In this document: piece by piece, positions 1 through 12,558 of the stretch | How the letters are laid out: the number at the start of each line of letters is the position of its first letter | Position numbering within the stretch: the first letter of the stretch is position 1 | Virus record (IMG/VR): IMGVR_UViG_2778261086_000003 | Coordinates: 1-13,716 of that record | Length of the DNA: 13,716 nucleotides | Source of the DNA: a virus | Taxonomy: Duplodnaviria > Heunggongvirae > Uroviricota > Caudoviricetes | Direction: 5' to 3' (one strand) | Notes under the pieces: generated by a model | The model's input: the letters and a program-made list of their open reading frames with translations, nothing else | The model's database searches: none | Told to the model about the DNA's origin: nothing | Made by a program: the position numbers and the translations under genes

Positions 1-867
1 TCAAAGGGGAGGTTCTGGTAGTTGCATCCAGTCGGTTACATTGCGACTCTGTGTTTCGAAAAATTCATCACCATTGCGGACAATATCGAAAAACTCTCCG
101 TCCCGATATTGCGCATAAAGAACGAATGCGCCATCACATAAAATAATTACGTGCTGATTATCATCAGGCATTCGCTCACTACAGCTTATCCAACCATCCG
201 GAGTTACCGGAACTTGCGGAATGGCTGTCTGCTCTCGAACGTCATTAGGCGCTATAGGTTCTGCTGCCAACTGACTGGCATATTTGTTAATGGTAACGAT
301 AAGCTCTTGCTCGGCCTCATCCAGACAATCACCGATACCTCGCCTGTCACCGTCAAAATCATCGAAATCGGCACGAATCTTGGCAACCTCCCGGATTGCG
401 GACAACACCTCACTAGGAATTACCGGATAGTTGGTTGACGTTTCCGCGATTTCCCGAAAATTATTGGTTGACGAATTCTTGTTTTCCCGAAAGTTTCCGG
501 ACTGAAGCATGGCGGCGCGGCAGGAGTTCCAGCCTCTCACCTCTGCAATAGCGGCAACAGCATCGACCGCGTACATTTTAAGAGGGTTAGGCATTGGTTT
601 TTCTTCAGGTACTACTGGCACTGGAGGGGTGGCATAAACAGGAATAACGTCCGATTGATCTTTATTACTTTCATCCGTCAAAGCCCAGAATAATTTCCCG
701 GCCGGATGTTTGAAAATATAAGCAACTGGATCTGCTTCCAGCGATGCCAGTGCAATTCGTGCCAGTTCTTCCGCTTCTTCTGCTGGCAGTACAACGTTGC
801 TACCAGGTCCGTATGTTTCGCGCCACTGCTTGATTGTAAGTAGTCGCTCTTTGGTAATAGTGGTCAT
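1..867 (-). CDS. DUF551-domain phage protein (288 aa)
   Basis: Complete ORF ending with a stop at 1-3. The C-terminal segment (MPDDNQHVIILCDGAFVLYAQYRDGEFFDIV...) resembles the DUF551 domain common in early-left regions of lambdoid prophages. Its start overlaps the stop of the upstream HNH gene by 4 nt. Family assigned from memory. Confidence 0.65.
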   Translation of the reverse strand: MTTITKERLLTIKQWRETYGPGSNVVLPAEEAEELARIALASLEADPVAYIFKHPAGKLFWALTDESNKDQSDVIPVYATPPVPVVPEEKPMPNPLKMYAVDAVAAIAEVRGWNSCRAAMLQSGNFRENKNSSTNNFREIAETSTNYPVIPSEVLSAIREVAKIRADFDDFDGDRRGIGDCLDEAEQELIVTINKYASQLAAEPIAPNDVREQTAIPQVPVTPDGWISCSERMPDDNQHVIILCDGAFVLYAQYRDGEFFDIVRNGDEFFETQSRNVTDWMQLPEPPL

Positions 868-1229
868 ACCGTAGCCCCTTCTTGATATTTTTCAAACCAG
901 AACACAACCGGGTCAGATTTCATTTCAACCAATCCCATACGAACCAGCGCTTTGCCTTTCCCGGATGCAAGGAATTCACGACGACCATCACTGATAATTC
1001 GCCGATAATCTTCCAGGCTACTGCAATGCTTGTGCAGATTGCATGGGTGGCATGCCGGAACCATGTTGGATATATCGTCACGTTCCTGGTGAAGCATATT
1101 TCCATCAAAACGAATGACCGGTTTTACATGGTCTGCATGCCACTTTTCGCCAAGTTCACAGCCGCAATAAGCACAGCGACCGCCAAACTTCATGCGCAAT
1201 TCTGCACGTTGTTTTTTCGTCAGTGCCAT
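864..1229 (-). CDS. HNH endonuclease (122 aa)
   Basis: Start placed at the internal ATG (1229-1227), preceded by GGAG and lying immediately after the upstream gene's stop (1231-1233); the longer ORF-track start at 1391 would overlap the Ead-like gene. Protein carries an HNH-type motif: CAYCGC...HADHVKP...CHPCNLHKH. Confidence 0.75.
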   Translation of the reverse strand: MALTKKQRAELRMKFGGRCAYCGCELGEKWHADHVKPVIRFDGNMLHQERDDISNMVPACHPCNLHKHCSSLEDYRRIISDGRREFLASGKGKALVRMGLVEMKSDPVVFWFEKYQEGATV

Positions 1230-1230
1230 T

Positions 1231-1920
1231 TCACTCTCCTTTGATGCGAATGCCAGCGGAGCGCTCGGCTTCACTTTGTTCCCAAAACCACTTGTGAAGC
1301 GCCATAAGCTTTTCGTCAATCGGTGCATATTTGCGATTAAAGTAGGCCTGAGCATCTTTCTCAGATTTGTCCGGCAATTCGCCAGGGCCAAACAGTGTGT
1401 TATAAATCCATGCCAGTCCGCTTTTAGCGTCGCCAGTTGCCTGCCATTCGATAATCGCAGCCTGCATGACCAGAATGTTTTTCCCGATTAACAGGTCCAG
1501 TTCTTTGAACCGGTTGCGGATGTATGCATTCTCGCTTTGTAATTTTGCGTTGCGCTTCTCTGCGGCTTCCAGCTCAACACGCAGCTTCCCTACCGTTAGC
1601 GCAATTTCCTCGTTCTCCTGGTCGCGGCGTTTGATGTATTGCTGTTTTCTTTCCAGCTCATCCAGCAGCGCCAAGACGGTAGCGGGATTGGCTGCGGCGA
1701 TGAATTCAGCATTGGCCTGCTGTTCCATTTGGAAATCTTCATCGAAACCGCTTTCTGGATGTGCTCCTTCAATTCTGCAAATAGGAATATATCCAGCAAC
1801 TTCACGATGAATTAGCGCATCATCACCATCAAATCGGCTCTCTCCATATTCGAGCGACCACTCACCACACGTTGCTTTTTCTGCCTTGGCCCGCAGTGCC
1901 TGAGAGTTAATTTCGCTCAC
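1231..1920 (-). CDS. Ead/Ea22-like phage early protein (229 aa), coiled-coil rich
   Basis: 229-aa ORF with a GTG start at 1920 that overlaps the TraR-like stop (GTGA). Central region is charged and heptad-like (ELERKQQYIKRRDQENEEIALTVGKLRVELEAAEKRNAKLQ). Composition and position match Ead/Ea22-family proteins of lambdoid phages. Confidence 0.6.
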   Translation of the reverse strand: MSEINSQALRAKAEKATCGEWSLEYGESRFDGDDALIHREVAGYIPICRIEGAHPESGFDEDFQMEQQANAEFIAAANPATVLALLDELERKQQYIKRRDQENEEIALTVGKLRVELEAAEKRNAKLQSENAYIRNRFKELDLLIGKNILVMQAAIIEWQATGDAKSGLAWIYNTLFGPGELPDKSEKDAQAYFNRKYAPIDEKLMALHKWFWEQSEAERSAGIRIKGE

Positions 1921-2236: not shown

Positions 2237-2452
2237 TCACCGTTCCTTAAAGACGCCGTTTAACATGCCGATCGCCAGGCTTAAATGAGTCGGTGTGAAT
2301 CCCATCAGCGTTACCGTTTCGCGGTGCTTCTTCAGTACGCTACGGCAAATGTCATCGACGTTTTTATCCGGAAACTGCTGTCTGGCTTTTTTGATTTCAG
2401 AATTAGCCTGACGGGCAATACTGCGAAGGGCGTTTTCTTGCTGAGGTGTCAT
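2237..2452 (-). CDS. hypothetical phage protein (71 aa from ATG at 2452; alternative 93-aa form from 2518)
   Basis: ORF 2237-2518. I prefer the internal ATG at 2452 because it forms an ATGA overlap with the stop of the 27-aa micro-ORF upstream. No family recognised. Confidence 0.5.
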   Translation of the reverse strand: MTPQQENALRSIARQANSEIKKARQQFPDKNVDDICRSVLKKHRETVTLMGFTPTHLSLAIGMLNGVFKER

Positions 2453-2532
2453 TGAACAAGTCCCATGTCGGCAAGCATAAGCACACAGAATATGAAGCCC
2501 GCTGCCAGAAAAATGCATTCAGTGGTTGTCAT
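2449..2532 (-). CDS. candidate micro-ORF, 27-aa hydrophobic peptide (MTTTECIFLAAGFIFCVLMLADMGLVQ)
   Basis: Hand-translated from the minus strand. Its ATG overlaps the stop of the 63-aa gene (ATGA, 2532-2529) and its TGA overlaps the ATG at 2452 (ATGA). One predicted transmembrane helix. Not in the ORF track. Confidence 0.3.
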   Translation of the reverse strand: MTTTECIFLAAGFIFCVLMLADMGLVQ

Positions 2533-2720
2533 ACCTGGTCTCTCTCATCTGCTTCTGCTTTCGCCACCATCATTTCCAGCTTTTGTGAAAGGGATGCGGC
2601 TAACGTATGAAATTCTTCGTCTGTTTCTACTGGTATTGGCACAAACCTGACTCCAATTTGAGCGAGGCTATGTGCCATCTCAATGCTCGTTCTTAACTCA
2701 ACAGGAGATGCTTTGTGCAT
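2529..2720 (-). CDS. hypothetical small phage protein (63 aa)
   Basis: First ORF of the leftward gene chain, acidic C-terminus (AKAEADERDQV). No confident family assignment. Confidence 0.5.
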   Translation of the reverse strand: MHKASPVELRTSIEMAHSLAQIGVRFVPIPVETDEEFHTLAASLSQKLEMMVAKAEADERDQV

Positions 2721-3046
2721 ACAGCTCCCCGTTTATTATTTATCTCCTCAGCCAGCCGCTGTGCTTTCAGGGGATTTCGGGTAACAGAAAGGCCGGGAAA
2801 TACCCAGCCTCGCTTTGTAACGGAGTAGACGAAAGTGATCGCGCCTATGAAACCAAGGACCTGGTTGATGTCGTAACCGGCGAAATCACTACTATCCAGT
2901 CGTTACGCCATACCTCCGATCTTGATACCGGAGAGATGTATGTCTTCCTGTGTAAGGTTGAAGCCTGGGCGATGAATATTGGCTGCCACCTGACTATTCC
3001 ACAGAGCTGCGAGTTTCAGCTGCTGCGCGACAAGCAGGAGGCGTAA
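2672..3046 (+). CDS. hypothetical protein, possibly the 3' remnant of a nin-region gene
   Basis: Reading frame ends at a TAA (3044-3046) that overlaps the ninE ATG. It has no convincing ATG with a ribosome-binding site, and its 5' end overlaps the divergent 63-aa gene. May be a truncated remnant left by a deletion. Confidence 0.3.
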   Translation: MPSQCSFLTQQEMLCAYSSPFIIYLLSQPLCFQGISGNRKAGKYPASLCNGVDESDRAYETKDLVDVVTGEITTIQSLRHTSDLDTGEMYVFLCKVEAWAMNIGCHLTIPQSCEFQLLRDKQEA

Positions 3047-3216
3047 TGGCTACACCGCTTATTCGTGTCATGAACGGACACATCTACAGAGTACCAAATC
3101 GTCGTAAGCGTAAACCTGAGCTGAAGCCATCCGAAATACCAACACTGCTCGGATATACCGCCAGCCTGGTTGATAAAAAATGGTTGCGACTGGCAGCAAG
3201 GAGGAGTCATGGCTGA
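3046..3216 (+). CDS. ninE: NinE protein (56 aa)
   Basis: Hand translation [56 protein letters not shown] matches the NinE family. AGGAGG lies 6 nt upstream; the stop overlaps the ybcO start region. Confidence 0.85.
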   Translation: MATPLIRVMNGHIYRVPNRRKRKPELKPSEIPTLLGYTASLVDKKWLRLAARRSHG

Positions 3217-3499
3217 TTTGAGAAAAGCAGCGCGTGGTCGGGAATGCCAGGTAAGAATCCCTGGCGTATGTAATGGCAACCCTGAAACGTCTGTACTGGC
3301 ACATATCCGGCTGACTGGATTGTGCGGCACCGGTACGAAACCGCCAGACCTGATTGCCACCATTGCATGTTCTGCCTGCCACGACGAAATCGACCGCCGC
3401 ACGCATTTTGTTGACGCTGGATATGCAAAAGAATGCGCGCTGGAAGGTATGGCGAGAACACAGGTTATCTGGCTGAAAGAGGGGGTTATTAAGGCGTGA
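3209..3499 (+). CDS. ybcO: YbcO-family nin-region protein (putative Zn-binding nuclease, 96 aa)
   Basis: [37 protein letters not shown]... with GGAGG at 3201-3205. Conserved Cys/His pattern. Sits in the ninE-ybcO-rusA order seen in DLP12-type prophages. Confidence 0.85.
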
Positions 3500-3858
3500 A
3501 TACCTACAGCATCACATTACCCTGGCCTCCGAGCAATAATCGCTATTACCGCCATAATCGCGGGCGCACGCACGTCAGCGCAGAGGGGCAGGCATACCGC
3601 GATAACGTCGCCCGAATCATTAAAAACGCAATGCTGGATATCGGCCTGGCTATGCCTGTGAAAATCCGCATTGAGTGCCACATGCCGGATCGCCGTCGCC
3701 GTGACCTGGATAATCTGCAAAAAGCCGCTTTTGACGCACTCACTAAAGCAGGTTTCTGGCTGGATGATGCTCAGGTCGTTGATTACCGCGTTGTGAAGAT
3801 GCCTGTTACCAAAGGTGGGAGGCTGGAACTGACCATCACCGAAATGGGGAATGAATGA
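3496..3858 (+). CDS. rusA: RusA Holliday-junction resolvase (120 aa)
   Basis: GTG start overlapping the ybcO stop (GTGA). Sequence [28 protein letters not shown]...[10 protein letters not shown] is recognisable as RusA. Confidence 0.9.
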
Positions 3859-3995
3859 TGTTTGAGTTTTATATGGCAGAACTTCTTCGCCACCGCTGGG
3901 GGCATCTGCGCTTATATCGTTTCCCCGGTTCTGTTTTGACCGATTACCGAATACTGAAGAATTACGCCAAAACCCTGACAGGAGCAGGAGTATGA
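3855..3995 (+). CDS. ylcG: YlcG small protein (46 aa)
   Basis: Hand-translated: [50 protein letters not shown] overlap with the rusA stop. Lies between rusA and Q as in DLP12. Confidence 0.75.
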
Positions 3996-4080
3996 AGTCA
4001 GAGATAACAATCAACTAATACTGTTTTGTTGATTTTTGCTTGTAATTGGCGTTCTGGTCTGATTTTTGTGGAGTAAGTTG

Positions 4081-4458
4081 ATGCGTGATATTCAGATGGT
4101 TCTTGAGCGTTGGGGAGCGTGGGCGGCTAATAATCATGAAGATGTGACCTGGTCGTCCATTGCCGCCGGTTTTAAGGGATTAATTACTTCAAAAGTAAAA
4201 TCTCGCCCGCAATGTTGTGACGATGACGCGATGATTATTTGCGGGTGCATGGCCCGTCTGAAAAAGAACAACAGCGATTTGCATGATTTATTGGTGGACT
4301 ATTATGTCGGCGGCATGACTTTTATGGCGCTTGCACGTAAGCATGGGCGATCTGATTGTTGGGTTGGCAGGATGCTCCAGAAAGCTGAGGGCGTAGTGGA
4401 GGGTATGCTGATGGTGTTGGATCTCCGATTGGAGATGGATGCTGATTGTTCGAAATAA
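4081..4458 (+). CDS. quuD: late-gene antiterminator Q (QuuD-like, 125 aa)
   Basis: ATG at 4081 preceded by GGAG (4070-4073); the ORF-track start at 4066 is a TTG extension. [24 protein letters not shown]... resembles DLP12/phage-82-type Q. Followed by a terminator, as expected for the pR'/tR' arrangement. Confidence 0.8.
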
Positions 4459-4558
4459 TTAAAGGAAAAGTTGCTGTCTGATTGTCATTAGTCTAACATT
4501 TTAAATGTTGGAATCGCAACGTAGTTATTATCATATAACAGCTTGTTTCCTGATTTAG
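4459..4558 (+). promoter_or_regulatory. putative late promoter and Q-utilisation region
   Basis: Position only: in lambdoid phages pR' and qut lie between Q and tR'. Weak -35/-10 candidates (TTGCTG...TAACAT) but no confident match. Confidence 0.3.
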
Positions 4559-4585
4559 CCAGCCTCCCCAAAGGCTGGTTTTTTT
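4559..4585 (+). terminator. rho-independent terminator (tR'-like)
   Basis: Stem CCAGCCT (4559-4565), loop CCCCAA, stem AGGCTGG (4572-4578), then TTTTTTT (4579-4585). Plus-strand only; the reverse read has no U-tract. Confidence 0.65.
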
Positions 4586-4613
4586 CTAATAAGTATTATT
4601 TCGGGTAGGGATT

Positions 4614-5138
4614 TTATTGTTTAACCCATAATAATTCATTGACATTGAATCCCAACTTTTGAGCGGTTCGCACATAGTCTGCTTTTACTTTATCTGGAAT
4701 AGTTGGGGTCCTTGCCAGAATCCATAGGTATTCTCTGTTCGGACCACTGACAAGAGCATACTTATACTCATCATCCAGTTTGATTACATTATAGCCACCA
4801 TAGAAGGGGCCAAAAAACGAAACCTTCAATGCTGCAGTTTTAGTATCTCCAGTAAAGTATGCTTTACCTTCGCTCTCGCTCCATTTATTTTTCGTTGGAT
4901 CGTATCCACGGTTAAGTACACGAATCCCTCCGTCGTTCCGTTTTCCATAAGTAGCGCTGACCTGTTCCAGATCACGTTCGAACCGGTTCTCGAGGCGAGC
5001 TATTTCATACCATTTTCCGAGGTAGCGGTTGGCGTCAAAATTTGTAATCGGCTGCACACCTTTAGGTGGTGTCGGGGCCTTACATGCTATAAGAGTGAAA
5101 GAGAGTGCAATGCCAGTCAACACAGGCCATAACTTCAT
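4614..5138 (-). CDS. Blc-family bacterial lipocalin, outer-membrane lipoprotein (174 aa)
   Basis: Signal peptide with lipobox (LIAC), then lipocalin signatures (NFDANRYLGKWYEIARLENRFE...YLWILARTP). Homologous to but distinct from chromosomal Blc. Lower GC than flanking phage genes and antisense to late transcription. Confidence 0.85.
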   Translation of the reverse strand: MKLWPVLTGIALSFTLIACKAPTPPKGVQPITNFDANRYLGKWYEIARLENRFERDLEQVSATYGKRNDGGIRVLNRGYDPTKNKWSESEGKAYFTGDTKTAALKVSFFGPFYGGYNVIKLDDEYKYALVSGPNREYLWILARTPTIPDKVKADYVRTAQKLGFNVNELLWVKQ

Positions 5139-5330
5139 AATAAATCCTGTACTTTTGATAGTTGAGAGTAAGTATGAAAGATAGATGATTACGACCGATC
5201 ACTTAAAGAACTTTCATACTATATTAGGAATAGTCCATAACAGAAAAATTGTCAGTGATGACGCCAGAAAGGCAATTTATTCCGTGCACTACACAGTTTA
5301 TGTGTTAATGAATTAGTCAAGGGGGAGAAT

Positions 5331-6290
5331 ATGATAAAAAAACCTGTGATTGGAATCAGCGGTTGTTTGGCCGGTTCTGCTGTTCGTTTTGATGGTGGTC
5401 ACAAAAGAGCTGACTTTTTAATGGACAAATTAGTGGAATGGGTAACATTCAGACCAGTATGTCCGGAAATGGCTATAGGGCTGCCAGTTCCGCGTCCTGC
5501 TCTACGTCTTGTGCGCTCGACGCAAGGAAATATACGGATGTGTTTCAGCCACGACCAGAATGAGGATGTGACAGAGAGAATGACAGAGTTTAGTCGTTCT
5601 TATATGGACAAATTAAAGGATGTATCGGGGTTTGTGGTTTGTGCTAAATCTCCCAGCTGTGGCATGGAGCGCGTGCGTGTCTATGATGAAAATGGTAATC
5701 GAGGTCGTAAAGATGGAGTGGGACTATTTACGAGTACTTTGATGGAAAAGTTTTCCTGGCTACCGGTTGAAGAGGATGGGCGATTACATGATCCAGTGCT
5801 TCGTGAGAATTTTGTTGAAAGAGTTTTTGCTTTGCATGAGCTCAATCACCTTTACAAGGAGAAATTATCAAGAAGAGAGTTATTAGCTTTTCATAGTCGT
5901 TATAAGCTTCAGTTGTTGGCGCATAGTCAGGCAGGCTATAAAGATATGGGACCATTTGTGGCTGCAATACACGAGTGGGCGGACCTTGAATCATACTTTG
6001 AGGTGTATCGTGATAATCTGATGGCGATTCTCAGAAAACCAGCATCACGTAAAAATCACACGAATGTGCTGATGCATATACAGGGGTATTTTAGTAATTA
6101 CTTAAGTACACGCCAGCGTAAAGAGTTGAGCGAGGTTATACTTAACTATCGCTTTGGCACATTGCCTCTTCTTGCGCCGTTGACTCTGCTGAAGCATTAT
6201 CTGGGTGAGTATCCTAATGATTACTTGCTTACACAGAATTACTTCGATCCCTATCCGGACGAACTGGCTCTAAGACTGATGGTAAATTAA
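5331..6290 (+). CDS. DUF523-DUF1722 fusion protein (RudS/TudS-like putative thionucleoside desulfidase, 319 aa)
   Basis: N-terminus has the DUF523-type Cys pattern (GISGCLAG, PVCPE, CAKSPSCGM), consistent with a [4Fe-4S] TudS-like fold. The C-terminal ~150 aa resemble the DUF1722 (YbgA-like) domain. GGAG 4 nt before the ATG. Domain call from memory, not HMM-verified. Confidence 0.65.
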   Translation: MIKKPVIGISGCLAGSAVRFDGGHKRADFLMDKLVEWVTFRPVCPEMAIGLPVPRPALRLVRSTQGNIRMCFSHDQNEDVTERMTEFSRSYMDKLKDVSGFVVCAKSPSCGMERVRVYDENGNRGRKDGVGLFTSTLMEKFSWLPVEEDGRLHDPVLRENFVERVFALHELNHLYKEKLSRRELLAFHSRYKLQLLAHSQAGYKDMGPFVAAIHEWADLESYFEVYRDNLMAILRKPASRKNHTNVLMHIQGYFSNYLSTRQRKELSEVILNYRFGTLPLLAPLTLLKHYLGEYPNDYLLTQNYFDPYPDELALRLMVN

Positions 6291-6641
6291 TTGTATGCGA
6301 TATCATCCAAAAGGATGAGTTCCTGCATGCAGGATATTTACAATCGTAAAAACTACACTATGATACCCAGAGTGTCAGTTTGTATAAAAACTCTGTTTAC
6401 GCTGAAGAAACAATTGAGATGCAACTTAAAGTTGGTAAACATGCCAGTCAAAATATATAATATTATGATTCCACGCAGCTATATATAATATAACAGATTG
6501 GTTTAATAATTTGTCTTTGTGAGTTAAATACATAATTTTATACTTGTGATGCAATGAAATTTTCCTTATTGTTGAACTGGCGAATATTGATTTTCCACCT
6601 ATACTTACCTGGTGTAACCCCAATGATATCAGGTGGATAAT

Positions 6642-7373
6642 ATGCCATACATATGTTCTATCATTTTGGTGTTGAACTCGTTTGATGTCCGAATTGGTAA
6701 AGAAGATATTTTGTTTAAAAAAGGAAGTGCTGTTCTCATTGATTACAATTTAAAAGATTTTTTTTCATCAAATATAGATCATGTAATGATCGTAGATGTT
6801 GAAGAGAAAACAGTTAATGATTTCTTTAAAAGCAACACACTCTCACCTTTTTCTGTAAGAAGGTTTTATCCGGCATACTTGATGGTGGAATGTGAAGATT
6901 TTTCATTGTTAAAGAACTTGATTGCATGCTTGAATTGTGATGGCAGAACTGTGGATTTTGTTAGAAATCAAATATCACTTGCATGTCTTGCTATCTTATC
7001 TTCAGAGAAAATAGTGCAAAGTTTTTTATTTGGATGTCTTAATAGTTTAGGAAGTAAAGTTAAGGCTATTATTCACACGGATATATCTGCAGCATGGAGA
7101 CTTTGTGATATATCTTCAAGACTGTATCTGAGTGAAAGTCTGTTAAAAAGAAAATTAAAGCACGAAGGCTTATCATTTAGTAAGTTAATTCTTGAAGAGC
7201 GAATGGTGATGGCGGAAAGGTTATTAAGCTACAATTTATATTCTGTTGGAAAAGTTGCTGAGATATGCGGTTATGAAAACACGTCATATTTTGTAAGTGT
7301 TTTCAGAAGATATTTTGGTGTTCCTCCCCATCAATATTCATCAAGATTTTTTTTAGAAAAAGACATGATGTAA
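6642..7373 (+). CDS. AraC/XylS-family transcriptional regulator (243 aa)
   Basis: C-terminal AraC-type HTH region (LLKRKLKHEGLSFSKLILEERMVMAERLL...VGKVAEICGYENTSYFVSVFRRYFGVPPHQY). ATG at 6642 with AGGTGG 5 nt upstream; the ORF-track start at 6633 is a GTG extension. Very AT-rich gene and leader. Confidence 0.75.
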   Translation: MPYICSIILVLNSFDVRIGKEDILFKKGSAVLIDYNLKDFFSSNIDHVMIVDVEEKTVNDFFKSNTLSPFSVRRFYPAYLMVECEDFSLLKNLIACLNCDGRTVDFVRNQISLACLAILSSEKIVQSFLFGCLNSLGSKVKAIIHTDISAAWRLCDISSRLYLSESLLKRKLKHEGLSFSKLILEERMVMAERLLSYNLYSVGKVAEICGYENTSYFVSVFRRYFGVPPHQYSSRFFLEKDMM

Positions 7374-7434: not shown

Positions 7435-7466
7435 ACGCCAGAATAATCGCTGGCGTTTTTCTTTTT
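7435..7466 (+). terminator. rho-independent terminator downstream of the AraC gene
   Basis: Stem CGCCAG (7436-7441), loop AATAATCG, stem CTGGCG (7450-7455), then TTTTTCTTTTT. Confidence 0.55.
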
Positions 7467-7561: not shown

Positions 7562-7777
7562 ATGAAATCTATGGATAAGTTAACAACGGGCATTGCCTAC
7601 GGTACCTCCGCAGGCAGTGCTGGCTACTGGTTTTTACAGCTGCTCGATAAAGTCACGCCCTCACAGTGGGCAGCAATAGGTGTATTGGGTAGTCTGGTAT
7701 TTGGCCTGCTGACGTACCTGACAAACCTTTATTTCAAGATTAAAGAAGATAAGCGCAAGGCTGCGAGAGGTGAATAA
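7562..7777 (+). CDS. essD: class II holin (phage 21 S21-like pinholin, 71 aa)
   Basis: [26 protein letters not shown]...; two transmembrane segments; dual-start motif Met1-Lys-Ser-Met4. GGAGGTGAGG ribosome-binding site. Stop overlaps the endolysin ATG (TAATG). Symbol follows DLP12 naming. Confidence 0.85.
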
Positions 7778-8274
7778 TGCCTCCATCATTACGAAAAGCC
7801 GTTGCTGCGGCTATTGGTGGCGGGGCTATTGCTATAGCATCTGTGTTAATCACTGGCCCAAGTGGTAACGATGGTCTGGAAGGCGTCAGCTACATACCAT
7901 ATAAAGATATCGTTGGTGTATGGACTGTATGTTACGGGCATACCGGAAAAGACATTATGCTCGGTAAAACGTATACCGAAGCAGAATGCAAAGCCCTCCT
8001 GAATAAAGACCTTGCCACTGTCGCCAGACAAATTAACCCGTACATCAAAGTCGATATACCGGAAACAACGCGCGGCGCTCTTTACTCGTTCGTTTACAAC
8101 GTTGGTGCTGGAAATTTCAGAACATCGACGCTTCTTCGCAAAATAAACCAGGGCGATATCAAAGGCGCATGTGATCAGCTACGGCGCTGGACATACGCTG
8201 GCGGTAAGCAATGGAAAGGGCTGATGACTCGCCGTGAGATTGAGCGTGAAGTCTGTTTGTGGGGGCAACAATGA
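7777..8274 (+). CDS. rrrD: SAR endolysin (phage 21 R21-like lysozyme, 165 aa)
   Basis: N-terminal Gly/Ala-rich weakly hydrophobic SAR segment ([20 protein letters not shown]), then a T4-lysozyme-like catalytic core. Stop overlaps the next ATG (ATGA). Symbol follows DLP12 naming. Confidence 0.9.
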
Positions 8275-8503
8275 GTAGAGTAACCGCGATTATGGTTCGA
8301 AATGGGATGTTATCCGTGAACGTGTGCTCAAGCGTGACAAAGGACTGTGTCAGTTATGTCTGCGTGGTGGTGTGGTGCGTGAGGCGAAAACCGTTGACCA
8401 CATCATCCCTAAAGCACATGGCGGCACTGATGCCGACAGCAATCTGCAGAGCCTGTGCTGGCCGTGTCATAAGGCGAAGACGGCCCGTGAACGGCTGAAG
8501 TAA
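8271..8503 (+). pseudogene. Rz (spanin) start fused to the 3' fragment of an HNH endonuclease gene
   Basis: ATG at 8271 encodes MSRVTAI, identical to the first seven residues of lambda-type Rz, then diverges. A different frame (from ~8279, after an in-frame TAG at 8276-8278, to TAA 8501-8503) encodes SNRDYGSKWDVIRERVLKRDKGLCQLC...DHIIPKAHGGTDADSNLQSLCWPCHKAKTARERLK, an HNH C-terminus with no start codon. Confidence 0.6.
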
Positions 8504-9123: not shown

Positions 9124-9938
9124 GCCGGAAATCTTACCCCAACGTAAATGCTGCCAATCAGTATGCCCGGGATGTCGTGCGCGGAAAGATTGTGGCCTGC
9201 CAGTTTGTGATTCAGGCCTGCCAGCGCCATCTTGATGACCTGATGGAGGAAAAAAGTAAGTCGTTTCGTTACCGCTTCGACAAGGACCTGGCTGAACGGG
9301 CCGCGAAATTTATTCAGCTGTTGCCGCACACCAAGGGTGAGTGGGCATTTAAGAGGATGCCCATCACGCTGGAGCCGTGGCAGCTCTTTGTGATCTGCTG
9401 CGCGTTTGGCTGGGTCAATAAAGGCTCCCGGCTGCGCCGCTTCTGTGAGGTGTATACCGAAATCCCCCGTAAGAACGGCAAATCGGCAATCTCTGCCGGT
9501 GTCGCCCTGTATTGTTTTGCCTGTGATAACGAGTTTGGCGCGGAAGTGTATTCCGGTGCCACGACAGAGAAACAGGCGTGGGAAGTCTTTCGCCCGGCGC
9601 GACTGATGTGTAAACGCACACCCATGCTGACGGAAGCGTTCGGGATTGAGGTTAACGCCTCAAACATGAACCGTCCGGAGGATGGCGCGCGGTTTGAACC
9701 GCTGATCGGCAACCCCGGTGATGGTTCATCACCCCACTGTGCGGTGGTGGATGAATATCACGAGCACGCCACCGATGCGCTTTATACCACGATGCTTACC
9801 GGGATGGGGGCGCGACGTCAGCCACTGATGTGGGCCATCACCACCGCCGGGTACAACATTGAGGGGCCGTGCTACGACAAGCGGCGGGAAGTTATCGAGA
9901 TGCTCAACGGTTCGGTATCAAATCGGATGGCACGGTGA
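9120..9938 (+). pseudogene. terminase large subunit, 3'-truncated (N-terminal ATPase domain only, 272 codons)
   Basis: Walker A motif (EIPRKNGKS) and ATPase-domain sequence present. The reading frame stops after ...EMLNGSV, whereas intact large terminases are roughly twice this length. Downstream sequence switches to unrelated glycine-rich coding. Confidence 0.8.
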
Positions 9939-10600
9939 AAACGGCTCTCGAAAACCTTGGTTTGGGAGATGGCTCGGGGCGTTACAGCAAAACTGTCGTT
10001 TTTTCATCGTCGGGTTCATATACGTGGCCAGCTGACGTAAAACGAATTGACGTTATTCTGACTGCGGGGGGCGGCGGTGGCGGTGGATGTAACGCGGAGA
10101 ACGCAAATCAGACATTTTCAGGGGCTGGCGGAGGAGCCGGAGGTACTGTTTTTGCCACTATTTATGCGACAGACAACGATGCCGGGCCAGGGACCTATAC
10201 AGTGACAATTGGCAGCGGTGGTAGTGGTGCCAATGGGCCAGGGTCTGGAAATAATGGCGGTAATAGTTCGTTCATGACATTAACTGCGCTCGGCGGCCAG
10301 GGTGGGCAATGGGGCGGCGCTACAAATACCGCTGGCGGGCGCGGTGGCTCAGGCTCTGGCGGTTATAAAACTGAACAAGGCGGAGACGGTTCAGACGGAC
10401 AGGCGGGCCAGGCGCTATTAGTAGGCAATGGGGCATCGAGCTATTGGGGTGGCGGCGGCCGCGCTGGGCAACTGAGCGGTAATCCTGGAGTTTGCTCTGG
10501 CTCCGGCGGCGGGGGTGCATACGATAATAGCTATTCACACACGTCAGGACGTGGCGGGCACGGAGCTAATGGCGTGCTGGTAATTCGGGAGTTCATGTAA
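9869..10600 (+). CDS. glycine-rich tail-fibre C-terminal fragment (5' end missing; real start unknown)
   Basis: ORF of 243 codons overlapping the truncated terminase. Sequence ...[26 protein letters not shown]... followed by long GGxGG/GSG runs is characteristic of glycine-rich domains of phage tail fibres. Immediately followed by a tail fibre assembly gene. The first ~15 codons are probably terminase DNA read out of frame. Confidence 0.5.
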
Positions 10601-11293: not shown

Positions 11294-12415
11294 TTAAGAT
11301 ATTCTTTTAGCTATAGAATGACCTATATTTATAAACGGTTTTTCTATTACGTTATATATCAAGTAAGATAGGCTTATAGAAATTATGAGCGATGATATAT
11401 AAATGGCAAACGATCTATGTTCAGTGCTAATACCAATACTGGAACCGTAAAACTCAATAAACTGTATAACAGGAACATGAATCAGATAAAGTGAATATGA
11501 TATTCCACCAAGAGCAACAAGTGATTTATTGAATGAAATAACTTTATTATTTTCTAGAATAATAACACACAAAACAATCAGAAATGCAATATATGCAGAT
11601 CGCGTCAAACCATGTCCTTCAGACACCCCATTAAGCCAAAAAACAAACATCATTCCTAGAATGAAAACGCATAAACTATTTATAATAGAATTATTCATTC
11701 TTTTATGCCTAAGTAAAGGCATTGTCTCTGATATAATCATCCCTAAAATGAAATCATATACTATAGGATTGCCTATGAATCCTATATGAGAAAACACCCC
11801 TGTTTTTGCAATATTGAATGATTGGGCGTCAATTACTACCGAGTGGTTAAAGTAAAGAGAAATAATTGTACTTACAGCAACTAGAAAACATGATGTGATT
11901 AATACCCTGTATTTTATGCTTAATGACATGGATATTGCGAAAATAAAATAAAAATATATCTCGTACCCAAGTGACCATGAAACAATTAGCGTTCCCCACC
12001 CATAATATGGCGGTAGAGTTGAGACATCTAAAGGGATGAGAAGAAATGATTTTATAATATTATTTATAGAAAAAACACCACCCCATGATACGCCTGTGTA
12101 AATATTGTGGTAAAAAAGAAAAACATAAACGCTTAATACTATTGCGTAAACAGGATAAATTCTAAAAAATCTCTTTACAAGAAATGAGGCGGTATTTCTT
12201 AAAGATGTTTTTGTAAAGTTTTTAGTTGAGTATGATATTATAAATCCGCTTATTATAAAAAACAATTCAACTCCAAATATAGCATTCGCGGTTATCCTGT
12301 CCATGAAAGAACCAGGATCTACTTGCCCGAAAAGACCTCTATTATGACCAATAGCTACAGCAAGAGCTGCAATTCCACGAAGCGCTTCTATTCCGTATAA
12401 TTTATCTGTTTTCAT
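11294..12415 (-). CDS. acyltransferase-3 family integral membrane O-acyltransferase (Oac/OafA-like, ~373 aa)
   Basis: Multi-pass hydrophobic protein with the N-terminal acyltransferase-3 signature (LYGIEALRGIAALAVAIGH). Start placed at ATG 12415; the ORF-track start at 12418 is a TTG. Very AT-rich and adjacent to the integrase, as for O-antigen acetylase genes of Shigella phages. Confidence 0.85.
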   Translation of the reverse strand: MKTDKLYGIEALRGIAALAVAIGHNRGLFGQVDPGSFMDRITANAIFGVELFFIISGFIISYSTKNFTKTSLRNTASFLVKRFFRIYPVYAIVLSVYVFLFYHNIYTGVSWGGVFSINNIIKSFLLIPLDVSTLPPYYGWGTLIVSWSLGYEIYFYFIFAISMSLSIKYRVLITSCFLVAVSTIISLYFNHSVVIDAQSFNIAKTGVFSHIGFIGNPIVYDFILGMIISETMPLLRHKRMNNSIINSLCVFILGMMFVFWLNGVSEGHGLTRSAYIAFLIVLCVIILENNKVISFNKSLVALGGISYSLYLIHVPVIQFIEFYGSSIGISTEHRSFAIYISSLIISISLSYLIYNVIEKPFINIGHSIAKRIS

Positions 12416-12558
12416 CAAGTAATATAGTTAGTAGTTGATAAAATTGTTGCTGGAGTCTACCACCAAGAGCTTGGATGATCGACCAGTTAGCATCTCAAGC
12501 TGTATGCGTGAGACAAAAACGAGACACACAAAGCTTTGCAAGTCTTTGCGCTGTTTAC

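What the first reader, a model, noticed from the sequence alone, without database searches (positions are those of the whole stretch)
5331..6290. Prophage-borne DUF523-DUF1722 (RudS/TudS-like) putative thionucleoside desulfidase
The protein joins a DUF523-type N-terminal domain, with three cysteines spaced as in the [4Fe-4S] 2-thiouracil desulfidase TudS, to a DUF1722 domain. That is the architecture reported for RudS, which removes 4-thiouridine from tRNA. A tRNA or nucleotide de-thiolation enzyme as phage cargo in the late region is unusual. It could tune host tRNA thiolation (UV response, translation) or act on thiolated nucleotides during lysogeny.
Basis: partly seen in the sequence, partly recalled or inferred. 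Interest (0 to 1): 0.7.

Follow-up and report, generated by a model that had tools for sequence, protein, structure and literature searches.

The report
Prophage copy of known RudS enzyme
This gene in a decayed E. coli prophage is a near-copy (93% identical) of a phage enzyme, RudS, already shown in 2024 to strip the UV-sensitive sulfur mark (4-thiouridine) from transfer RNA, so its identity is settled and only its use to the phage or its host is still open.

Summary
Window 5331-6290 (+) is an intact 319-aa ORF with full-length Pfam matches to the TudS/DUF523 domain and to DUF1722 (both about 8e-40). It has Cys12, Cys44 and Cys110, and every residue whose mutation inactivated RudS.

It is not new. 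The protein is 93% identical, without gaps, to RudS_vir (Escherichia phage 1H12 gp66). Jamontas et al. 2024 synthesised that gene, expressed it and showed that it lowers tRNA 4-thiouridine in E. coli.

The same cassette (Q, terminator, blc on the opposite strand, rudS, AraC-like gene, holin) is found complete in 993 of 5426 complete E. coli genomes. It is also in 12 deposited lambdoid phages, and RudS relatives are in 145 IMG/VR contigs.

My additions are these:
- The blc-rudS pair looks co-captured from an Enterobacter-like chromosomal locus, without its MerR/MlrA-type regulator.
- The gene is under purifying selection (dN/dS 0.10, 80 of 80 copies intact).
- It lies where the Q-dependent late transcript must cross it.
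- A Proteus prophage captured a RudS independently.
- The window's prophage is a deletion remnant.

The biological role is inferred, not shown.

The parts
5331..6290 (+). rudS coding sequence (319 aa plus stop), a TudS-DUF1722 fusion
   Evidence: ORF. Both Pfam domains. 93% identical to RudS_vir and 99% to the phage IdasGreatGrand copy. Full-length match to phrog_3275.
5349..5777 (+). TudS/DUF523 catalytic domain (residues 7-149), carrying Cys12, Cys44, Cys110, Glu46, Arg55, Ser107 and Ser109
   Evidence: PF04463 at E = 7.9e-40. Aligns to TudS 6Z92. Residues mapped and invariant.
5904..6257 (+). DUF1722 domain (residues 192-309). In RudS_KT this is the domain that binds the tRNA anticodon arm. 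It contains Ser239 and Arg240.
   Evidence: PF08349 at E = 7.7e-40. 49% identical to E. coli K-12 YbgA over residues 164-315. Ser239 and Arg240 match RudS_KT Ser243 and Arg244.
5319..5327 (+). Shine-Dalgarno-like AAGGGGGAG, 3 nt upstream of the ATG
   Evidence: Read directly from the sequence.
5139..5330 (.). 192-bp divergent intergenic region between blc and rudS. An own promoter for rudS is presumed here. It holds one weak sigma-70-like match at 5162-5189 and no LexA box.
   Evidence: The region has no MerR/MlrA remnant. The promoter is inferred, not shown.
4614..5138 (-). blc-like outer-membrane lipocalin gene, divergent partner of rudS
   Evidence: PF08212 at 1.1e-43 and NCBIfam Blc at 314 bits. 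Adjacent to rudS in 80 of 80 viral contigs. 81% identical to the rudS-linked Blc of Enterobacter, against 59% to E. coli chromosomal Blc.
4066..4458 (+). Late-gene antiterminator Q (phage 82/21 type)
   Evidence: PF06530 at 1e-50. Found upstream of the cassette in 78 of 80 viral contigs.
4557..4587 (+). Intrinsic terminator (9-bp stem plus a run of seven U) about 100 nt after Q. Its position matches the lambdoid tR' terminator that Q-modified polymerase reads through.
   Evidence: -14.9 kcal/mol, z = -3.5, and no U-run on the minus strand. Conserved in phages 1H12 and IdasGreatGrand. The tR' assignment is by position only.
6642..7373 (+). AraC-family (YdeO/GadX-like) regulator gene, 32% G+C, third gene of the cassette
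   Evidence: PF12833 and PF00165. Best NCBIfam match is YdeO at 7e-37, below the curated cut-off. Matches phrog_1450. Present in 73 of 80 viral contigs. G+C content.
7435..7466 (+). Second intrinsic-terminator-like hairpin, between the AraC-like gene and the holin
   Evidence: -12.1 kcal/mol, z = -2.7.
7562..8274 (+). Lysis genes (P21-type holin 7562-7777 and lysozyme 7777-8274). They mark the downstream end of the cargo slot.
   Evidence: PF04971 and PF00959.

Best explanation
The gene encodes an active RudS, a [4Fe-4S] enzyme that converts 4-thiouridine at position 8 (and 9) of host tRNA back to uridine.

Mechanism, taken from the characterised family. Cys12, Cys44 and Cys110 hold the cluster, and its free iron binds the sulfur of s4U. 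Glu46, positioned by Arg55, Ser107 and Ser109, activates water to displace the sulfur. The DUF1722 domain (including Ser239 and Arg240) grips the anticodon arm so that the enzyme acts on tRNA and not on free bases.

Context. The gene is one of three cargo genes (blc, rudS and an AraC-like regulator) in the slot between the antiterminator Q with its terminator and the lysis genes of lambdoid phages. In intact relatives, the Q-modified late transcript must cross rudS to reach the lysis genes, so the gene would be expressed on induction. In a lysogen, any expression would need a promoter in the 192-bp blc-rudS spacer.

Likely pay-off. Lower s4U would mean fewer UVA-induced s4U8-C13 cross-links, less uncharged tRNA and a shorter growth delay or stringent response.

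What is shown and what is inferred. The architecture, residues, 93% identity to a tested enzyme, synteny and purifying selection are shown. Activity of this particular allele, its promoter, its Q-dependence and any fitness benefit are inferred.
For: Both domains match full length at about 8e-40.

The protein is 93% identical, without gaps, to RudS_vir. That gene was synthesised and overexpressed in E. coli, and every RudS tested lowered tRNA s4U 4.7- to 26-fold, while stand-alone TudS and YbgA did not.

All seven RudS_KT residues whose mutation abolished activity have identical counterparts. These are the three Cys, Glu51, Ser111, Ser113 and Arg60. The tRNA-binding residues Ser243 and Arg244 also have counterparts. 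All are invariant in 18 homologues.

dN/dS is 0.105 against the 1H12 allele. All 80 IMG/VR copies are full length with no internal stop.

blc(-) and rudS(+) are adjacent in 80 of 80 viral contigs, with Q upstream in 78 and the holin downstream in 76. The flanking RusA and lysozyme genes fall to 32-38% identity, so the cassette travels as a unit through mosaic phages.

A strong plus-strand terminator follows Q, and a second one precedes the holin.

Overexpressed RudS_KT diminished the UVA growth delay in E. coli (abstract; discussion).
Against: RudS_vir had lower tRNA desulfidation than other RudS enzymes despite high protein levels.

The window allele differs from RudS_vir at 22 positions and matches none of the 80 viral-contig alleles exactly.

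The window's prophage has lost its immunity and replication region and its structural genes. Q-driven expression after SOS induction may therefore no longer happen here.

Only a weak promoter-like match lies upstream of rudS.

The AT-rich surroundings (32% G+C downstream) are the kind of DNA that H-NS usually silences (my own knowledge).

A thiI deletion, which removes s4U, mildly reduced lambda replication. Erasing s4U is therefore not obviously good for lytic growth.

The AlphaFold model was too poor to confirm the fold.
Confidence: 0.85

Rival explanations
1. The gene is a silent passenger. It is biochemically competent but is not expressed and confers nothing in this remnant, and it persists only because it travels with the Q-lysis block.
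For: The prophage is a remnant. It has no cI, cro, O or P genes, TerL is cut after the ATPase domain, and there are no head or tail genes. There is no strong promoter upstream of rudS. The flanks have low G+C. No expression data were found in the literature.
Against: dN/dS is 0.105 for rudS and 0.074 for blc between allele classes. All 80 copies are intact. The cassette is kept in many partly deleted prophages, and is complete in 993 of 5426 genomes. A Salmonella locus keeps RudS as almost the only survivor of a prophage-like insertion next to ttcA.
Confidence: 0.12
2. Its main substrate is free 4-thiouracil or 4-thio-UMP, as for stand-alone TudS. On this view it salvages or detoxifies thiolated nucleotides released by tRNA turnover during phage growth.
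For: The catalytic domain belongs to the TudS family. Among the RudS proteins tested, RudS_vir gave the shortest lag on 4-thiouracil in a uracil auxotroph.
Against: [quoted passage not shown] The DUF1722 tRNA-binding domain is fully conserved and under purifying selection. RudS_vir lowered tRNA s4U in vivo.
Confidence: 0.05
3. The molecular activity is the same, but the benefit is superinfection resistance. A lysogen with less s4U would be a poorer host for incoming lambdoid phages.
For: A thiI deletion strain showed a mild but significant increase in resistance to lambda. Lambdoid cargo slots often carry exclusion functions (my own knowledge).
Against: The thiI effect was small, and the authors suggested it works through sulfur partitioning at IscS, not through s4U itself. 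The phage would carry the same handicap on its own induction. There is no match to any defence-system model.
Confidence: 0.05

Closest known systems
RudS_vir (Escherichia phage 1H12 gp66, NC_049947; Jamontas et al. 2024, PMC11417400)
   Same: Same length (319 aa) and 93% identical without gaps. Same Cys12, Cys44 and Cys110. Same gene order: Q, blc(-), rudS, AraC-like gene, holin.
   Different: There are 22 substitutions, none at a catalytic or ligand residue. The 1H12 copy sits in an intact, isolated phage, whereas the window copy sits in a deletion remnant.
Chromosomal RudS of Enterobacteriaceae, including Salmonella RudS_ST/ORF319 and the Enterobacter cloacae RudS discussed in the paper
   Same: Same architecture and length, 69-76% identical, all key residues invariant.
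   Different: The native genes are linked to one of three things. These are a MerR/MlrA-type regulator, a photolyase gene, or an operon of amine oxidase, DUF1365, CFA-synthase-like and DUF3833 genes. The phage copy has none of these. It keeps only the divergent blc neighbour, has gained an AraC-like gene, and lies in the late transcription unit.
RudS_KT (Pseudomonas putida PP_0741), the biochemically and mutationally characterised reference
   Same: Domain fusion, Fe-S cysteines, the catalytic residues Glu, two Ser and Arg, and the Ser-Arg tRNA contact in DUF1722.
   Different: It is a distant orthologue. Several secondary contact residues differ (Y25 to F, N26 to D, K120 to R), and N202 and N203 could not be mapped. 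I had no RudS_KT sequence, so the mapping uses constant numbering offsets.
TudS (stand-alone DUF523, PDB 6Z92)
   Same: Catalytic domain family. Cys, Cys and Glu align in the N-terminal 60 residues.
   Different: TudS has no DUF1722 domain, acts on free thiouracil and 4-thio-UMP, and does not lower tRNA s4U. Sequence similarity is weak (E = 2e-5).
E. coli YbgA (b0707, stand-alone DUF1722 upstream of phr)
   Same: 49% identical to residues 164-315.
   Different: YbgA has no TudS domain, and no TudS remnant lies upstream of it. It has no effect on s4U. RefSeq nevertheless labels the prophage protein 'YbgA family protein', which hides its function.
Lambdoid cargo genes between Q and the lysis genes (for example stx in Stx phages and nmpC in DLP12; my own knowledge)
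   Same: Same slot, downstream of Q and its terminator and upstream of the holin.
   Different: The cargo here is a tRNA-modification eraser plus a lipocalin and a regulator, not a toxin or a porin.

Membership tests
RudS (TudS-DUF1722 tRNA 4-thiouridine desulfidase) | N-terminal TudS/DUF523 domain | tested here: met
   PF04463 at residues 7-149, 141 of 141 model positions, E = 7.9e-40.
RudS (TudS-DUF1722 tRNA 4-thiouridine desulfidase) | DUF1722 domain fused at the C-terminus of the same polypeptide | tested here: met
   PF08349 at residues 192-309, 117 of 117 model positions, E = 7.7e-40. It is a single ORF with no internal stop.
RudS (TudS-DUF1722 tRNA 4-thiouridine desulfidase) | Three conserved cysteines that bind the [4Fe-4S] cluster | tested here: met
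   Cys12, Cys44 and Cys110 are present. These are the positions listed for RudS_vir and RudS_ST in Table 1 of the paper. The alignment to RudS_vir has no gaps, and the three are invariant in 18 homologues.
RudS (TudS-DUF1722 tRNA 4-thiouridine desulfidase) | Catalytic Glu, two Ser and Arg (RudS_KT E51, S111, S113, R60) | tested here: met
   Glu46, Ser107, Ser109 and Arg55. They were mapped by constant numbering offset, supported by 20 identical residues out of the 30 mapped N-terminal and central residues, and they are invariant. Glu46 aligns with TudS Glu45.
RudS (TudS-DUF1722 tRNA 4-thiouridine desulfidase) | tRNA-contact residues in DUF1722 (RudS_KT S243, R244; N202, N203) | tested here: inconclusive
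   Ser239 and Arg240 match and are invariant. The N202 and N203 equivalents could not be placed without the RudS_KT sequence.
RudS (TudS-DUF1722 tRNA 4-thiouridine desulfidase) | Converts s4U to U in tRNA, and a [4Fe-4S] cluster is present | not testable with these tools
   Shown by overexpression for the 93% identical RudS_vir, not for this allele.
RudS (TudS-DUF1722 tRNA 4-thiouridine desulfidase) | Typical (not defining) light-stress context: MerR/LitR-type regulator, photolyase or photo-oxidative-stress operon | tested here: not met
   There is no MlrA, Phr or CMAS homologue anywhere in the window. Among 80 native loci, 50 are next to phr, 13 are in the AmOx-DUF1365-CMAS-DUF3833 operon (one of them with DUF3833 only), and 13 are next to a MlrA-type gene.
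TudS (stand-alone thiouracil/4-thio-UMP desulfidase) | Single-domain DUF523 protein of about 150-170 aa | tested here: not met
   The protein is a 319-aa two-domain fusion.
YbgA (stand-alone DUF1722) | DUF1722 only, about 169 aa, reaching the NCBIfam PRK10167 equivalog score | tested here: not met
   It scores 189 bits against a cut-off of 237, and only residues 160-315 match.
Lambdoid late-region cargo gene (moron) | Located between antiterminator Q with its terminator and the holin, with G+C unlike the phage backbone | tested here: met
   Gene order. Terminator. G+C is 43% for rudS and blc and 32% for the AraC-like gene, against 47-59% for Q, the lysis genes and terminase. The same slot is used in 78 of 80 viral contigs.
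Known anti-phage defence systems (PADLOC) | Match to a defence-system protein model | tested here: not met
   No family matched RudS, Blc or the AraC-like protein.

The most novel reading that the evidence does not exclude
Temperate phages may have recruited RudS repeatedly and rewired its control. The evidence for repeated recruitment is the E. coli lambdoid cassette, an independent 57%-identical copy downstream of Q in a Proteus myxofaciens prophage, and a RudS-plus-DUF1367 remnant next to ttcA in Salmonella. In the E. coli cassette the native light-sensing MerR/MlrA regulator is gone and the gene is wired into the Q-dependent late transcript. Erasure of s4U would then be part of the induction programme: UV damage, then SOS, then Q, then RudS. 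It would keep translation running and damp the stringent response in irradiated cells. Alternatively, it could be a lysogenic-conversion trait that gives about one in five E. coli strains a UVA tolerance that K-12 lacks.
Probability: 0.25. Interest if true: 0.55.

Novelty: already known. Interest (0 to 1): 0.3.

Why it matters
The enzyme family and even its phage-borne form are published, so this gene adds no new biochemistry. Three smaller points come out of this work.

1. The published statement that E. coli lacks RudS holds for laboratory strains only. About 18-21% of complete E. coli genomes carry it on prophages, under the uninformative label 'YbgA family protein'. Natural isolates may therefore differ in tRNA s4U level and in UVA growth delay.

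2. The phage copy has lost the regulator that ties native RudS to light. It sits in the late transcription unit instead, which gives a concrete and testable link between prophage induction and tRNA de-modification.

3. PHROGs lists the family (phrog_3275) as 'unknown function', and it can now be annotated.

Tried and rejected
- **Structure prediction.** The second job, on 18 close homologues, gave mean pLDDT 50 and pTM 0.37. That is too poor for a fold search, so none was run.
- **Profile against the PDB.** It aligned TudS only over residues 6-58, so the third cysteine could not be aligned to the crystal structure directly.
- **LexA box upstream of rudS.** None was found. The three one-mismatch matches in the window are no more than chance gives, and the nearest lies inside the coding sequence.
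- **Phage lipocalin as a counterpart of DUF3833 or the 175-aa protein in the Citrobacter/Klebsiella RudS operon.** There is no similarity.
- **Remnant of the MerR/MlrA gene, or alignable intergenic DNA, between blc and rudS.** None was found. Nucleotide similarity to native loci is limited to the two coding regions, at 65-74%.
- **tRNA genes and Rfam families in the window.** None.
- **Defence-system models.** None matched the cassette.
- **RudS_KT sequence for a direct alignment.** I could not obtain it. The genome scan returned only Enterobacterales.
- **Is the AraC-like gene one of the EHEC prophage regulators PsrA, PsrB or PatE?** The primary paper is not held, so this is unresolved.
- **Literature on the cassette.** Searches for RudS with prophage, and for YbgA, lipocalin and prophage together, found nothing on it.

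Full report
**1. The observation**

Window 5331-6290 (+) is a single 319-codon ORF preceded by AAGGGGGAG. Pfam matches both claimed domains over their full model length. PF04463 (now named 2-thiouracil desulfurase, formerly DUF523) covers residues 7-149 at E = 7.9e-40. PF08349 (DUF1722) covers residues 192-309 at E = 7.7e-40. NCBIfam matches only the C-terminal half to the YbgA model, below its cut-off. The antisense ORFs inside the gene are 50-54 codons long and have no support.

**2. What it is**

The RudS paper (Jamontas et al. 2024, PMC11417400) lists among its tested genes 'RudS_vir', gp66 of Escherichia phage 1H12, with ligand cysteines Cys12, Cys44 and Cys110. My phage search had already found that phage.
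- The window protein is 93% identical to gp66 without a gap, and 99% identical to the copy in phage IdasGreatGrand. It has cysteines at the same three positions.
- The paper reports that overexpressing any of six RudS orthologues in E. coli lowered tRNA s4U 4.7- to 26-fold, while stand-alone TudS and YbgA had no effect. RudS_vir was active, but less so than expected from its protein level.
- Table 2 of the paper gives the RudS_KT residues that were mutated. With constant numbering offsets, every residue whose loss abolished activity has an identical counterpart here. C17, C49, C114, E51, S111, S113 and R60 correspond to C12, C44, C110, E46, S107, S109 and R55. R24, G27, R64, E152, R155, S243 and R244 also have identical counterparts.
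- All of these are invariant in 18 enterobacterial homologues.
- TudS (PDB 6Z92) aligns over the first 60 residues, with the first two cysteines and the glutamate in register.
- A structure prediction failed for lack of alignment diversity (pLDDT 50), so it was not used.

**3. Surroundings**

The window is an E. coli prophage at an IntS-type site. The best-matching genome (strain 2018-05-2CC) has it beside evgAS-emrKY. The gene order is as follows:
- NinE, YbcO and RusA;
- Q (4066-4458);
- a terminator (4557-4587);
- blc on the minus strand (4614-5138);
- rudS;
- an AraC-family gene (6642-7373);
- a second terminator-like hairpin (7435-7466);
- the holin and lysozyme;
- a shortened HNH gene and TerS;
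- TerL cut after its ATPase domain;
- a glycine-rich tail-fibre fragment and a tail-fibre assembly gene;
- an acyltransferase and the integrase.

There are no immunity, replication, head or tail genes. Similarity to related prophages breaks at about 2846, 8293 and 9917. No complete E. coli genome has this exact arrangement. The element is therefore a deletion remnant.

**4. How common it is**

The 3-kb cassette matches 1153 of 5426 complete E. coli genomes, and 993 of them hold at least 80% of it. It matches 12 deposited lambdoid phages. A relative of RudS is encoded in 145 IMG/VR contigs.

In the 80 best viral contigs:
- blc(-) and rudS(+) are adjacent in all 80;
- Q lies upstream in 78, the AraC-like gene is present in 73, and the holin lies downstream in 76;
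- RusA and lysozyme fall to 38% and 32% identity, so the cassette moves as a unit through mosaic backgrounds.

All 80 copies are full length without stops. The window allele matches none of them exactly and mixes variants of two sub-lineages. Against the 1H12 allele, dN/dS is 0.105 for rudS, 0.074 for blc and 0.27 for the AraC-like gene.

The paper's statement that E. coli lacks RudS is therefore true only of laboratory strains. K-12 has only YbgA, which is 49% identical to the DUF1722 half, and no TudS remnant lies upstream of it.

**5. Origin**

Outside the E. coli prophage lineage, the nearest proteins are 70-76% identical chromosomal RudS of Citrobacter, Enterobacter, Klebsiella and Serratia. 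The 80 native loci fall into these classes:

| Native context of RudS | Loci |
|---|---|
| Next to the photolyase gene phr | 50 |
| End of the amine oxidase, DUF1365, CFA-synthase-like, DUF3833 operon | 12 |
| DUF3833 only, on a short contig | 1 |
| blc(-), MerR/MlrA-type regulator(+), RudS(+) | 11 |
| blc(-), RudS(+) without the regulator | 2 |
| MlrA-type regulator(+), RudS(+) without blc | 2 |
| Phage Q upstream (Proteus myxofaciens, L155) | 1 |
| None of these | 1 |

In Kluyvera cryocrescens, blc and rudS are direct divergent neighbours with a 112-bp gap.

The phage Blc is 81% identical to the rudS-linked Blc of an Enterobacter, but only 59% identical to E. coli's own Blc. The simplest reading is that blc and rudS were captured together from an Enterobacter-like locus and that the MerR/MlrA-type regulator is absent from the captured block. 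This is an inference from synteny. The donor is not among the sampled species, because nucleotide identity is only 65-74% and is limited to the coding regions. The AraC-like gene has 32% G+C against 43% for blc and rudS, so it probably arrived separately.

Two further phage-linked copies exist.
- A Proteus myxofaciens prophage carries RusA, KilA-N, DUF968, Q, a lysozyme/amidase gene, RudS (57% identical) and a pertussis-S1-like ADP-ribosyltransferase gene.
- A Salmonella Derby locus has RudS plus a DUF1367 phage gene between ttcA and a Usp-family gene.

**6. How it most likely works**

The chemistry is taken from the family. A three-cysteine [4Fe-4S] cluster binds the thione sulfur, Glu46 activates water, and the DUF1722 domain holds the anticodon arm.

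For expression, the hairpin at 4557-4587 is a strong plus-strand intrinsic terminator about 100 nt after Q, and it is conserved in the intact phages. This is where lambdoid phages have tR'. The Q-modified late transcript must then run through rudS and the AraC-like gene, antisense to blc, to reach the lysis genes. This step is inferred from position. In a lysogen, expression would need a promoter in the 192-bp spacer, and only a weak match is present.

The benefit is also inferred. RudS_KT overexpression diminished the UVA growth delay. The phage may thereby protect translation in irradiated, induced cells, or it may give the lysogen UVA tolerance. Against a simple benefit for lytic growth, a thiI deletion mildly reduced lambda replication. 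That result also suggests a superinfection-resistance rival.

**7. Comparison and verdict**

The protein meets every sequence-level criterion for RudS and is nearly identical to a tested member from the same kind of phage. It is not a TudS, a YbgA or a known defence protein. PHROGs holds the three cassette genes as phrog_3275, phrog_2809 and phrog_1450, all without a function. RefSeq calls the protein 'YbgA family protein'.

Novelty is 'already known'. Interest is low to moderate. It rests on the unexplored question of why temperate phages carry a tRNA s4U eraser, and on the finding that many natural E. coli strains have one.

Noticed in passing
window 6642-7373 (+), with the AT-rich 6291-6641 upstream: An AraC-family regulator gene with 32% G+C lies directly downstream of rudS. 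Its best NCBIfam match is YdeO (7e-37, below the cut-off), followed by HilD and GadX. Two strong promoter-like sites lie upstream, at 6337-6364 and 6432-6461. It may belong to the prophage-encoded Psr/PatE group that controls acid resistance and type III secretion in EHEC, but this could not be checked.
   Followed up: partly
window 4614-5138 (-): A prophage-borne paralogue of the outer-membrane lipocalin Blc. It is 81% identical to the Blc that sits beside rudS in Enterobacter chromosomes and only 59% identical to E. coli's own blc. Its dN/dS is 0.07. In intact phages the late transcript would run antisense to it.
   Followed up: partly
L155 (Proteus myxofaciens ATCC 19692), 2385-7059: A prophage late region with Q, a lysozyme/amidase gene, a RudS (57% identical to the window protein) and a 263-aa protein with pertussis-toxin-S1 and enterotoxin-A-like ADP-ribosyltransferase matches. 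It appears to be an independent capture of RudS downstream of Q, next to a toxin-like cargo gene.
   Followed up: partly
L006 and L007 (Salmonella enterica serovar Derby and a metagenome contig), about 3285-6814 in L006: A RudS 73% identical to the window protein lies between ttcA (the tRNA 2-thiocytidine synthase gene) and a Usp-family gene, together with a DUF1367 phage gene. From my own knowledge, this is the position of the Rac prophage in E. coli K-12. It looks like cargo that survived the decay of a prophage.
   Followed up: no
window about 2720-2846, 8275-8323 and 9917-9940: Three apparent deletion junctions. The first joins early-left genes directly to a ybcN fragment followed by ninE and ybcO. 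The second follows the lysozyme gene: no spanin gene is present and the HNH gene is cut to 59 codons. The third is inside TerL, whose 272-codon ATPase-only ORF overlaps the 243-aa glycine-rich tail-fibre ORF.
   Followed up: partly
window 11294-12418 (-): An Acyl_transf_3 membrane acyltransferase (374 aa, about 32-34% G+C) lies between the tail-fibre assembly gene and the IntS-type integrase. This is the usual place for O-antigen-modifying lysogenic-conversion genes (my own knowledge).
   Followed up: no
window 864-1391 (-): An HNH/NinG-like protein gives weak matches to the PtuB component of the Septu defence system (best E = 3.4e-8). The match is limited to the HNH region and there is no PtuA partner, so it is probably just the shared nuclease domain.
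   Followed up: no
phage records H58-H65 (Listeria, Enterococcus and Pseudomonas phages): These phage records encode proteins matching only the TudS domain, at about 30% identity over residues 3-154. Stand-alone TudS-like genes therefore also occur in deposited phage or prophage sequences of unrelated hosts.
   Followed up: no
window 5331-6290, residues 14, 27, 64, 162, 229, 275 and 310: The window allele carries N229 and F275, which in the viral contigs occur in 21 of 80 copies alongside G14, D27, K64 and I162 (also 21 of 80 each) and E310 (22 of 80). At those other five positions the window has the majority residues. This suggests recombination between two RudS sub-lineages. K229 is nearly invariant in the wider family.
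   Followed up: partly
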